From contig NC_043015.1 in the NCBI RefSeq assembly GCF_006345805.1, forward strand, positions 16,306,001-16,370,000: a stretch of DNA of 64,000 bases, given 5' to 3'. This stretch comes from Octopus sinensis. Taxonomy: Eukaryota. A program made the position numbers. Each line of letters starts with the position of its first letter. Position 1 is the first letter of the stretch. Below are positions 35,861 through 38,800 of this stretch, in pieces.

Positions 35861-38800
35861 TTTTCACTTCTTTAAACCACCCACTGCTGAACTTTGGTAA
35901 TAATTCAATTTAAAACGTCTTTCATTGCAAAGGTTAAATTCATTCTCCCCCTTCTACACACCTGCACCCACCTATCATGAAATTTATCTTAATACCATTG
36001 TTTGATAGTGAATGTACATTCCTTTTGGCAGATGTCGTTTGTCAGTAAAATTACTCTCACATCTCAGATGTTTCTTGTTATAGCTAAGTAGTCAGTTACA
36101 TCAGTCTTAACTCTATCTTAAAACCTATTTCCTTTAACCTTCTTGTATAGTGATGATCTATGATCAACTTAAAATCAAGTAGCTAAGCACACACCAGAAT
36201 ACCACAGCTACTTTTTTTTATACTTAACATCTAGTACTTCATTTTGAACAAGCCTCTCAGAATGAACATCAACTGATGTATATCTAAGAAAAACAGAATG
36301 AACAAGAGATATTTGATAGCAAAATCTTTTAAACCAATATCAAACTTACCTTGTCATGCAATGTCCAACCAACATACTTCAAGTAGCTATCATCGAGAAA
36401 CATGTAAGGGTACTTTCGCATCCACACCCCGATCTCTGATGAACATATTGCTCTTATTTCTGGCTGGGTGTCCCTGCAAAAATGTCAGCAAATCATCAAC
36501 CCATGACTTACCTTGTCATGCAATGTCCAACCGACGTACTTTAAGTAGCTATCATCTAAAAACATATTCGGGTACCTCCGCATCCATACCCCAATTTCTG
36601 TTGTACATATTGACCTTATTTCTGGGTGTGTATCTCTGAAACAGTACAGGAAAACCAGGTTATAAGGCTTTCCCTTTAGTTGTTTAGGACTACAAAATGG
36701 ATATTATATGTTCCTTAGCACATCTGAGTAGGAAGTGATATAAAATCTTTTCACCTTGTAGCTAAAATAATGACTGCTGATGGATGTTATGCCCTCCAAC
36801 TCTTTTTGTTCATCAAAAAGCAGAGGAAGAAATGTCTGATAATGCTACAAGTAACTTTTTGCATTCAAAGATCAGAAAAACAATATCAACCATATCAAAT
36901 GATTGCGACCATTAATAAGAACATTCTAGAGTCTCAAAAGTGACCAACTAGAATGGAACAAGACAAACATTAGAAAATGTAATTTTAGTTGCAGTCAAGT
37001 ACTTTATCAAGTGCAAAAAACTAAAACTAACTATGGAGTAAAAGATCATGCTCCACAAATAACAGTGCCACAATGACAAGAAAGTGTTGAGAAATAAATA
37101 AGACAAATAAAGAAATATTCAAAACATTCTGAAGTCTCAGGTAACCTAGCTCCCAACAGCAGTTTTCTTTTAACTGTGGCTTTGTCAGAAAGAGAACTCA
37201 TATAATGCTTTGAAGGTTAATTAAGAAAATAGGAAAAAGAAACCCTGGCAGGAGTACAAAGGAGGCAATAACAAATTCTCAGACAGATGAAGGATTAACA
37301 ACATTTAGTGCCCATTACTAAAGGCATCTAAGGGTCAGATGGTGGTATTTAAATATACACAACCTTAAAACAAGTACATCTGACAGGCTTCCAGTTTTTG
37401 TTTACCTAATTTCATTCACAAGGCCAAGTTTTATCTGAGAGTCTGATTGAAGATATAGGGTCATCCCATAAATAATGCAGCCTTTTCAATTGTATGAACT
37501 AAAAGGCAGAGGGGGACAGGATAAACTACCTGCATAAATTTGCTATAAAAGCAGGTAGTAATTTTACCTTGTGCTTATTCTTTGTGCAAGTTTTGAAGAG
37601 TACAATTTGATTTTAACAGTTATTTTTCCAAAGCTATAATGGAAGTGACAAAGGAGCATATTTTGCTTTATGAATTTAATAAATGTAACAACGCAATGGA
37701 AAGTGCGAGGAATATTAATGCAGTATATAGGGGTCGGACAATAAGCATAAACCAGTGACAATAATGGTTCCAGAAATTCTGAGCCAGAAAGTACAGCCTA
37801 GAAGATGAGCCTTGTCCTGGAAGAGCTGTAGAGCTCAACAGGGATGTCCTGAAAAACCTGGTGGAACAAAAATCCATTGTAAATGTTGAGGAACTAGTAG
37901 ACAAGCTTGGATTTGGTCATTCGACCATTCATTGGCACCTGTGCACCAACAGAAAAGTCAGCAAATGGGGTCAATGATTCCTCACAAACTTTCTGAGTCT
38001 AATCGTGCGCAGAGAGTGAATGCGTATTCTTCTTTGCTGTTACGTCTCATGAACGAACCTTTTTTGGAATGAATAGTGACTGGTGACAAGAAATGGGTTC
38101 TCTATAAAAATGCCAAGCACCAAAGACAGTGGGTAGGGAAAGGAAAAACACTGGCAGCCCAGGCTAAAGAAGGTCTTCATCTACATAAGGTGTTGTTATC
38201 TGTTTGGTGGAATATGAAAGGTTTAGTCCACTTTGAACTTTTAAATCCAAACCAAACGATAACTCAAGAGATCTACTGTGAGCAGTTTGAGCAACTTGTC
38301 AGTGCTAGAAGGAAAACGACTATCTTTGATTTCAAGATGAAAGGTGTTCTTCCATCAGGATAATGCTTGGCCACATACAGTGAGGATAACATTCCAAAGG
38401 CTGGAGCAGTTTGCATGGGAAACGATACTCCACCCACCATATTCGTCGGACATTGTCCCATCTGATTATCATTCATTCAGCAGTCTTCAAAATCATTTGG
38501 ATGGAAAAAATATGAATTCTGTAGACGAGGTCAGAACAGTACTGGAGGAGTACTTTTCGCCGCGGACAAGTTTGGAGGAGGAGCCTTGCAAGTCTACCAG
38601 ATAGATGGAAGAGTATTGTAGAAAATGAAAGAGAGTATATTTTAGATTAAAAAAAACTTTATCTTAATTTTGAAAAAGAAAAGAAGTATAAAAAAACTGC
38701 ATTATTTATGGGATGACCCAATACTTGCTCGGCCACATGCCCGTGTCCATGTAAGATTAAACTTATCCAAAAGAGATATATTGCACCACATTACAACACA

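What the first reader, a model, noticed from the sequence alone, without database searches (positions are those of the whole stretch)
36350..36635. Tandem, apparently mutually exclusive exons in the regulator-binding region of cohesin SA/STAG
Seen: two 124-nt phase 2-to-0 exons, each with a good acceptor and an AAG|gtaagt donor, both open, separated by 38 nt. They differ at 21 of 124 nt, but only 6 codons change the amino acid (H/Q, S/A, T/S, T/S, R/K, N/Y); most changes are synonymous, which suggests purifying selection on both copies. Three features oppose double inclusion: the spacer is too short for normal splicing, with a candidate branch point (CUGAC) only about 26 nt from the A donor; joining A+B shifts the frame; and retaining the spacer hits an in-frame TGA. 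Skipping both also shifts the frame. Known: this exon carries the DSYLKYVGW motif (human SA2 D326/K330/W334), part of the conserved essential surface bound by CTCF, shugoshin and WAPL. Those residues are identical in A and B, and the variation sits in the preceding helix and loop. Inference: one gene yields two SA isoforms, possibly a splicing-level analogue of vertebrate STAG1/STAG2 paralogs. I know of no report of this, but cannot check the literature.
Basis: partly seen in the sequence, partly recalled or inferred. Interest (0 to 1): 0.92.

Follow-up and report, generated by a model that had tools for sequence, protein, structure and literature searches.

The report
Twin alternative exons in cohesin SA gene
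A cohesin SA/STAG gene carries two adjacent, old, equally well-preserved copies of one 124-base exon that can only be used one at a time, so the gene probably makes two slightly different proteins, though no transcript data were available to confirm it.

Summary
On the minus strand, exon A (36635-36512) and exon B (36473-36350) are both 124 nt and 38 nt apart. They differ at 21 of 124 nt and 6 of 41 residues. Each matches Pfam SCD (E about 2e-18) and human SA1/SA2 residues 301-339. The flanking exons are 63515-63442 and 22554-22456, and nine more SA exons follow colinearly.

The copies are old and both constrained: dS is about 1.0 and dN/dS is 0.07. If one copy had drifted freely, 6 or fewer residue changes with no stop would occur in 47-61 of 100,000 simulations. 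Similarity stops at the exon edges, so this is not an assembly join.

Every non-exclusive product is broken: A+B, skipping both, and spacer retention each meet a stop. The 38-nt spacer must hold B's branch point, well under the 50-nt steric limit.

This is a textbook tandem-duplication, mutually exclusive exon pair in a gene where I found no such report. Usage of both exons is inferred, not shown. The STAG1/STAG2 analogy is weak, because the changed residues are conservative and lie outside the named ligand-pocket residues. Interest is moderate.

The parts
63442..63515 (-). Upstream constitutive SA exon (74 nt). It encodes LEENQEEIRNMLTYIFKGVFVHRY plus the first two bases (AG) of a split Arg codon. 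Its last full residue corresponds to SA2 Y297.
   Evidence: Sequence read. PDB search E = 1e-6 to 5e-6 against human SA1/SA2, aligned to 274-297 of 7zjs_A. No Pfam hit for this 24-residue piece.
36512..36635 (-). Exon A (124 nt, intron phase 2 before it and phase 0 after it). It is the first of the two homologous alternative exons and encodes (R)[41 protein letters not shown].
   Evidence: Pfam SCD PF21581, E = 1.7e-18, 67.1 bits, profile positions 2-42 of 75. PDB SA1/SA2 E = 4e-15 to 4e-14. Splice sites scored.
36474..36511 (-). 38-nt spacer between A and B. It holds the A donor GTAAGT, two branch-point-like motifs (TTGAT 36499-36495 and CTGAC 36488-36484), a T5 tract and the B acceptor GCAG. 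An in-frame TGA lies at 36487-36485. The only AG dinucleotides are in the donor and at the acceptor.
36350..36473 (-). Exon B (124 nt, same phases as A). It is the second homologous alternative exon and encodes (R)[41 protein letters not shown].
   Evidence: Pfam SCD, E = 2.8e-18, 66.4 bits. PDB SA1/SA2 E = 1e-15 to 3e-14. Splice sites scored.
22456..22554 (-). Downstream constitutive SA exon (99 nt, phase 0 to 0). It carries the second half of the SCD domain.
   Evidence: Pfam SCD E = 2.1e-8, profile positions 45-75 of 75.
1562..21523 (-). Further SA exons, colinear with the protein: 21523-21444, 19182-18960, 18826-18712, 17458-17355, 14926-14837, 14571-14482, 10780-10721, 5564-5421, and one near 1688-1580 whose boundaries were not fixed.
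   Evidence: ORF listings. Boundaries. Pfam HEAT_SCC3-SA PF24571 in 7 of 8 ORFs, in profile order; four reach the 25-bit cut-off and three fall below it at 23.8, 16.5 and 24.0 bits. The eighth ORF (19182-18960) matches SA1/SA2 in the PDB at E = 2e-17.

Best explanation
A tandem duplication of one internal exon of a cohesin SA/STAG gene gave rise to a pair of mutually exclusive exons. Each mature mRNA carries exactly one of the two 124-nt copies, so the gene encodes two SA proteins. These differ at six residues, in the helix and loop just before the DSYLKYVGW segment of the stromalin conservative domain.

Exclusivity is enforced in two layers.
1. Steric (inferred). The B acceptor has to take its branch point from the 38-nt spacer, because the only AG upstream of the acceptor lies in the A donor itself. 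That places the branch point 15 or 26 nt from the A donor, too close for U1 on A and U2 on B to form a spliceosome across the spacer.
2. Reading frame (shown). Including both exons, skipping both, or retaining the spacer each gives a premature stop. Such mRNAs would be unproductive and probably removed by nonsense-mediated decay.

Shown here: the gene's identity, the homology of the two exons, intact signals on both, purifying selection across the pair, and the frame consequences. Inferred: that both exons are used, the steric block, the decay of aberrant products, and any functional difference between the isoforms. The likeliest difference is a modest tuning of the surface next to the regulator-binding pocket, or a separately regulated expression of two nearly equivalent proteins.
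For: 1. Gene identity. A and B each match Pfam SCD well above the 27.5-bit cut-off (67.1 and 66.4 bits) and human SA1/SA2 residues 301-339. The upstream exon aligns to 274-297 and the downstream exon to the rest of SCD. Later exons follow in HEAT_SCC3-SA profile order.

2. Selection.
- There are 13 synonymous and 7 non-synonymous steps over 23.3 and 99.7 sites, giving pS 0.56, pN 0.07, dS about 1.02, dN 0.074 and dN/dS 0.07.
- With 20 random substitutions placed in one copy, the mean is 13.6 residue changes. Six or fewer changes with no stop occurred at a fraction of 3e-5 (A) and 2e-5 (B) of 200,000 trials each.
- With 17 substitutions (the share expected if one copy were neutral), the count was 61 and 47 of 100,000.
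- There are no indels.

3. Splice signals on both copies are as good as, or better than, those of the ten neighbouring exons.

4. All 3 of 3 non-exclusive outcomes hit stops.

5. Spacer length. The spacer is 38 nt, while the other ten introns mapped are 133 to 26,806 nt. Hatje et al. 2017 (PMC5740500, passages read) use a donor-to-branch-point distance under 50 bp as the steric criterion; 57 human clusters (9%) meet it. [quoted passage not shown]

6. Similarity is confined to the exon plus splice consensus. Upstream flanks: 25 of 2000 shuffles score as high. Downstream flanks: 162 of 2000.
Against: - No transcript, junction-read or cDNA evidence could be reached, so use of both exons is not shown.
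Conservation of the pair and per-copy dN/dS are therefore untested.
- The selection test covers the whole time since the duplication. If the 20 in-frame differences are split more evenly, it loses power: 13 random substitutions give 2.0-2.4%, and 10 give 17-19%. A copy that fell silent recently is not excluded.
- The six residue changes are mild and avoid the named pocket residues, so a functional difference between isoforms is not evident.
- Local RNA folding of 36300-36700 is unremarkable (z = -0.80; 22 of 100 shuffles fold as well). No docking/selector-type regulation was seen.
- CTGAC lies only 11 nt from the acceptor, closer than is usual (recalled norm of about 18-40 nt).
Confidence: 0.72

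Rival explanations
1. Only one of the two exons is used in practice. The other is a formerly alternative exon that has recently fallen out of use, or is included only rarely or unproductively, so the gene effectively makes one protein.
For: There are no expression data. The selection test loses power if the silent period is short: 13 random changes give 2.0-2.4%, and 10 give 17-19%. B's branch-point and pyrimidine signals are compact (a T5 tract, with CTGAC 11 nt from the AG), and its acceptor pyrimidine score is lower than A's (0.67 against 0.78).
Against: Both copies keep a donor matching the consensus at 8 of 9 positions, an open frame, identical length and near-identical Pfam scores (67.1 and 66.4 bits). 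Over the whole divergence, dN/dS is 0.07 at dS about 1. With 17 of the 20 changes placed in a free-drifting copy, P is about 5e-4.
Confidence: 0.18
2. Assembly artefact: two haplotypes or collapsed reads were joined in tandem, and the real genome has one exon.
For: Tandem duplicates of short units can arise from misassembly, and no raw reads were available to check.
Against: The copies differ at 17% of bases, with dS about 1, far beyond allelic divergence. The differences are strongly biased towards synonymous sites. Similarity stops at the exon borders, with unrelated flanks apart from the splice consensus. A haplotype join would duplicate intron sequence at similar identity.
Confidence: 0.02
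3. Both exons are kept in one mRNA, either by splicing the 38-nt spacer or by retaining it. If retained, its TGA would be read through or recoded (for example A-to-I editing of UGA to UGG). A plus spacer is 162 nt, or 54 codons, so B would then be in frame.
For: A plus spacer is 162 nt, a multiple of three, and the TGA is the only stop in that frame.
Against: Splicing the spacer out gives a frameshift with stops inside B. Retention would insert a duplicated helix-loop segment into a HEAT-repeat protein. Both spacer splice sites are consensus-strength, which argues against retention. The 1-in-3 chance of a multiple of three is unremarkable. Nothing was tested for editing.
Confidence: 0.02

Closest known systems
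Mutually exclusive exons enforced by branch-point proximity, classically alpha-tropomyosin exons 2/3 (Smith and Nadal-Ginard 1989; seen only as a reference entry in PMC7969005, otherwise recalled). [quoted passage not shown]
   Same: There are two adjacent alternative exons. The downstream exon's branch point lies too close to the upstream exon's donor for the intervening intron to be removed. Here the whole intron is 38 nt.
   Different: Here the intron itself is tiny, rather than holding a distant branch point within a longer intron. Nothing has been tested biochemically. The gene is a cohesin subunit, not a muscle or metabolic gene.
Tandem exon duplication giving homologous mutually exclusive exons, backed up by frame incompatibility and nonsense-mediated decay (Hatje et al. 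2017, PMC5740500, passages read; Abascal et al. 2015, PMC4494069, passages read).
   Same: The copies have equal length, the same phase, clear sequence similarity and a length not divisible by three. Both are conserved as coding sequence.
   Different: Neither paper's main text mentions STAG or cohesin. The case here is in a non-human genome and lacks RNA validation.
Vertebrate STAG1/STAG2 (SA1/SA2) paralogues, and the conserved essential surface bound by the YxF motifs of CTCF and SGO1 (PMC10279526, passages read).
   Same: The alternative exon encodes the segment that holds SA2 L329 and W334, and the upstream exon ends at Y297. All three are named as pocket residues in that paper. Two SA variants would come from one locus.
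   Different: Human SA1 and SA2 differ at only 3 of 39 aligned positions in this segment, and at positions other than those where A and B differ. The A/B difference is confined to 6 residues of one exon, whereas the paralogues are separate genes. No functional split is shown.

Membership tests
Cohesin subunit SA/STAG/Scc3 | Stromalin conservative domain (Pfam SCD PF21581) above the gathering score | tested here: met
   Exon A scores 67.1 bits and exon B 66.4 bits (profile positions 2-42). The downstream exon scores 34.8 bits (profile positions 45-75). The cut-off is 27.5 bits.
Cohesin subunit SA/STAG/Scc3 | HEAT-repeat body (Pfam HEAT_SCC3-SA PF24571) downstream of SCD, in order | tested here: met
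   7 of 8 downstream ORF pieces match, in increasing profile order (1-41, 32-67, 68-96, 96-130, 124-148, 146-194, 215-247). Four score above the 25-bit cut-off and three below it. The searches were done exon by exon only.
Cohesin subunit SA/STAG/Scc3 | Pocket residues of the conserved essential surface (SA2 Y297, L329, W334) are present | tested here: met
   The alignments place Y, L and W at these positions in both isoforms. The residue roles come from PMC10279526. L366 and F367 lie in later exons and were not checked.
Cohesin subunit SA/STAG/Scc3 | N-terminal STAG domain and full-length architecture | not testable with these tools
   The 5' part of the gene lies outside the window, and a joined model was not built, by instruction.
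Mutually exclusive homologous exons (tandem exon duplication) | Adjacent exons of similar length, same phase and significant sequence similarity | tested here: met
   Both are 124 nt and share the same phases (2 before, 0 after). They are 83% identical in nucleotides and 85% in residues, with E = 5e-24.
Mutually exclusive homologous exons (tandem exon duplication) | Both copies have functional-looking splice sites and an open frame | tested here: met
Mutually exclusive homologous exons (tandem exon duplication) | Joint inclusion or joint skipping is incompatible with the reading frame | tested here: met
Mutually exclusive homologous exons (tandem exon duplication) | Junction reads from each exon that bridge the other, with few or no A-B junctions | not testable with these tools
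Steric-hindrance type of mutual exclusion | Distance from the upstream donor to the downstream exon's branch point below about 50 nt | tested here: met
   The whole spacer is 38 nt. The candidate branch adenosines lie at spacer positions 16 and 27, and there is no AG between the donor and the acceptor. The threshold is taken from PMC5740500. The branch point itself is predicted, not mapped.
Competing RNA secondary structure type (docking and selector sites) | Conserved intronic complementary elements pairing one site with each variant | tested here: inconclusive
   The local fold has z = -0.80. Only short, imperfect inverted repeats were found in 35900-37400 (13-20 nt, 75-87% complementary). 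No orthologues were available to test covariation, and the 27-kb and 14-kb introns were not scanned.
U2/U12 splice-site incompatibility type | One exon flanked by U12-type signals and the other by U2-type signals | tested here: not met
   Both donors are GTAAGT and both acceptors are YAG preceded by a pyrimidine tract. The U12 consensus is recalled.

The most novel reading that the evidence does not exclude
This animal regulates cohesin by alternative splicing of the SA subunit next to its regulator-binding hub. The two exon variants would give cohesin complexes with different affinities for YxF-type partners (CTCF, shugoshin, WAPL-like factors). They would be deployed in different cell types or in the germ line versus the soma. 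That would be a one-gene solution to what vertebrates do with STAG1, STAG2 and STAG3.
Probability: 0.15. Interest if true: 0.7.

Novelty: new member of a known kind. Interest (0 to 1): 0.5.

Why it matters
SA/STAG is the cohesin subunit on which CTCF, shugoshin and other regulators dock. Vertebrates diversify it through separate genes. A conserved pair of alternative exons at the edge of that docking surface would be a compact natural experiment: two isoforms that differ at six defined residues. These could be tested for partner binding, loop anchoring and cohesion protection.

It would also add a chromatin-architecture gene to the list of mutually exclusive exon cases, which is dominated by channels, muscle proteins and metabolic enzymes.

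If the two isoforms prove equivalent, the case is still a clean example of the steric-plus-frame mechanism, with an unusually short 38-nt spacer.

Tried and rejected
- Third copy or other duplicated SA exons. Local tblastn and blastn of the four exon peptides and the two 202-nt units against the window found only A and B.
- Local RNA structure. Not significant. The inverted repeats are short and imperfect.
- Partial gene conversion at the 3' end. Three differences fall in the last 45 nt and 18 in the first 79. At third codon positions the counts are 3 of 15 against 11 of 26, Fisher p = 0.19, not significant.
- Isolated-peptide AlphaFold models. A has mean pLDDT 78.4 and B 67.1, both helix-loop-helix. 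A 41-residue fragment without context is too weak to place the variable residues on a surface. I draw nothing from them beyond the secondary-structure outline.
- Rfam and tRNA scans of the window. Nothing found.
- Nested genes. Stop-to-stop ORFs of at least 110 residues are low-complexity repeat translations, SA exons or retroelement remnants. A Pertussis_S2S3 hit at E = 0.051 (14 bits against a 27-bit cut-off) is noise.
- Literature. Nine searches found no report of alternative homologous exons in SA/STAG/Scc3:
  - 58 papers, 20 listed, all generic splicing-category mentions;
  - 19 papers, 15 listed, none relevant;
  - 4 papers, none on cohesin;
  - 0 papers;
  - 2 papers, irrelevant;
  - 9 papers, 6 listed. 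The cephalopod 3D-genome paper PMC13652810 mentions cohesin only in references, and CTCF motifs in two passages;
  - searches were run to find structural and mechanistic references.
  Subscription journals, database annotations and supplements were not searchable.
- Left unchecked:
  - the ESM Atlas (no alignment output, so it could not separate A from B);
  - the organism of origin.
- I do not take this window for human. The exon peptides are 26 and 27 of 39 identical to human SA1 (my count on the alignments).
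Full report
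**What is there**

The window (64,000 nt, 33.8% G+C, no N) carries part of a cohesin SA/STAG gene on the minus strand. Reading that strand at 36200-36800 shows two 124-nt segments, A (36635-36512) and B (36473-36350).
- Each is preceded by a pyrimidine tract and CAG, and followed by AAG|GTAAGT.
- A 38-nt spacer (36511-36474) separates them.
- They differ at 21 of 124 bases and at 6 of 41 encoded residues: H/Q, S/A, T/S, T/S, R/K, N/Y.
- The first base of each exon completes a split codon begun by AG at the end of the upstream exon. AGA and AGG both encode Arg.
- The repeat finder sees the pair as a 136-nt direct repeat, 84% identical, at spacing 162.
- A local BLAST finds no third copy in the window.

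**Gene identity and model**

By instruction I searched the model exon by exon and did not build or search a joined coding sequence.
- A and B each match Pfam SCD (PF21581) at 67.1 and 66.4 bits (cut-off 27.5), over profile positions 2-42 of 75. The next exon (22554-22456) supplies positions 45-75.
- Against solved structures, both align to human SA1/SA2. In full-length SA2 numbering (chain 7zjs_A) this is residues 301-339.
- The upstream exon (63515-63442) aligns to 274-297.
- Downstream I mapped 21523-21444, 19182-18960, 18826-18712, 17458-17355, 14926-14837, 14571-14482, 10780-10721, 5564-5421 and one more exon near 1688-1580.
- Seven of eight ORF pieces hit Pfam HEAT_SCC3-SA in profile order. 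The eighth matches SA1/SA2 at E = 2e-17.
- Introns are 26,806, 38 (between A and B), 13,795, 932, 2,261, 133, 1,253, 2,428, 265, 3,701 and 5,156 nt.

**Are both copies alive?**

- Nei-Gojobori counts give 13 synonymous and 7 non-synonymous steps over 23.3 and 99.7 sites. That is pS 0.56, pN 0.07, dS about 1.0 (near saturation) and dN/dS 0.07.
- When 20 substitutions fall at random in one copy, the mean is 13.6 residue changes. Six or fewer with no stop occurred at 2-3 per 100,000 trials.
- A one-copy-dead model expects about 17 of the 20 changes in the dead copy. With 17, the figure is 47-61 per 100,000. With 13 it is 2.0-2.4%, and with 10 it is 17-19%.
- So death of one copy soon after the duplication is rejected. 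A recent silencing is not.
- Neither copy has an indel.
- Both donors match the U1 consensus at 8 of 9 positions. This is the best score among the 12 exons, shared with the upstream exon; the other nine score 6-7. Both acceptors fall within the range of the other ten exons.
- Outside the exons, similarity is limited to the splice consensus. For the upstream flanks 25 of 2000 shuffles score as high, and for the downstream flanks 162 of 2000.
- An assembly or haplotype join would not produce this pattern of old, synonymous-biased, exon-only similarity.

**Why only one at a time**

The frame consequences are shown directly.
- 124 is not a multiple of three.
- After A, exon B is read in a frame with two stops after 27 codons.
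- If the spacer is retained, the frame runs VSHGLMIC and then meets TGA at 36487-36485.
- If both exons are skipped, the downstream exon is read out of frame and stops after 8 codons.

The steric block is inferred.
- The spacer contains no AG other than the one in the donor GTAAGT and the acceptor itself.
- By the AG-exclusion logic (recalled), B's branch point must therefore lie inside the spacer.
- The candidates are CTGAC (branch A at spacer position 27) and TTGAT (position 16).
- Either is far inside the under-50-bp donor-to-branch-point distance that Hatje et al. 2017 use as the criterion for steric interference (PMC5740500, passages).
- The smallest other intron mapped in this gene is 133 nt.
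- I found no sign of a competing-RNA-structure mechanism (z = -0.80) or of U12-type signals. The former cannot be excluded without orthologues.

**What the isoforms might do**

- The exon covers the end of one helix, a loop and the start of the next helix. This outline comes from isolated-peptide models of low weight.
- In the SGO1-SA2-SCC1 structure paper (PMC10279526, passages), SA2 Y297 and W334 line the pocket for SGO1 F337. L329, L366 and F367 line the pocket for Y335. The same surface binds the YxF motif of CTCF.
- Y297 is the last residue of the upstream exon. L329 and W334 are in the alternative exon and are identical in A and B.
- The six variable positions correspond to SA2 301, 306, 309, 310, 318 and 321. 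Of the five human equivalents I searched for in that paper, none is named.
- Human SA1 and SA2 differ at three other positions of this segment. So A and B are more different from each other here than the human paralogues are, but not in a parallel way.
- I therefore regard 'two isoforms' as likely. I regard 'functionally distinct isoforms analogous to STAG1/STAG2' as an open and fairly unlikely possibility.

**Novelty**

- Nine literature searches found no description of homologous alternative exons in SA/STAG/Scc3 of any organism.
- The main texts of the human atlas of mutually exclusive exons and of the homologous-exon evolution study do not mention STAG or cohesin.
- Genome annotation databases, where such isoforms may already be modelled without comment, were out of reach.
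- The mechanism is a known kind; the gene is new for it.

**Limits**

- There were no transcript data and no relatives from other species.
- No organism was assigned. If it is correct, CTCF motifs at domain boundaries and loops have been reported in coleoids (PMC13652810, passages), which would give the surface a plausible client.

Noticed in passing
window 32231-35836 and 29258-29970: A 3.6-kb imperfect (TA)n array begins about 510 nt downstream (in gene sense) of the exon B donor, and a 713-nt (AT)n array lies further on. Both are inside the 13.8-kb intron. They account for the 13% G+C in 32-36 kb.
   Followed up: partly
window 36512-36532 and 36350-36370 (exon positions 104-124): The last 21 nt of A and B are identical and contain the hexamer TGCATG at exon positions 114-119. 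It matches the recalled Rbfox-type motif, but it also encodes the conserved L-H-D. The lower divergence of the 3' part is not significant (p = 0.19).
   Followed up: partly
window 36484-36488: The in-frame TGA that closes the spacer-retention frame lies inside the best branch-point motif, CTGAC. A plus spacer is 162 nt, exactly 54 codons.
   Followed up: yes
window 116-514 (-), 8027-9294 (-), 13817-14449 (-): These are retroelement remnants inside SA introns. One is a sub-threshold reverse-transcriptase match (RVT_1, E = 2e-4, 21.6 bits against a 29.6-bit cut-off). The others are ORFs that by eye look gag/zinc-knuckle-like and like a reverse-transcriptase tail, with no Pfam support.
   Followed up: partly
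window 52599-53276 (both strands): Long open frames on both strands run through a low-complexity, Ser/Asn/Thr- or Ala/Val/Gly-rich stretch in the 26.8-kb intron. It is probably a repeat, not a gene.
   Followed up: no
whole window: No Rfam family reached its gathering score and no tRNA was found.
   Followed up: yes
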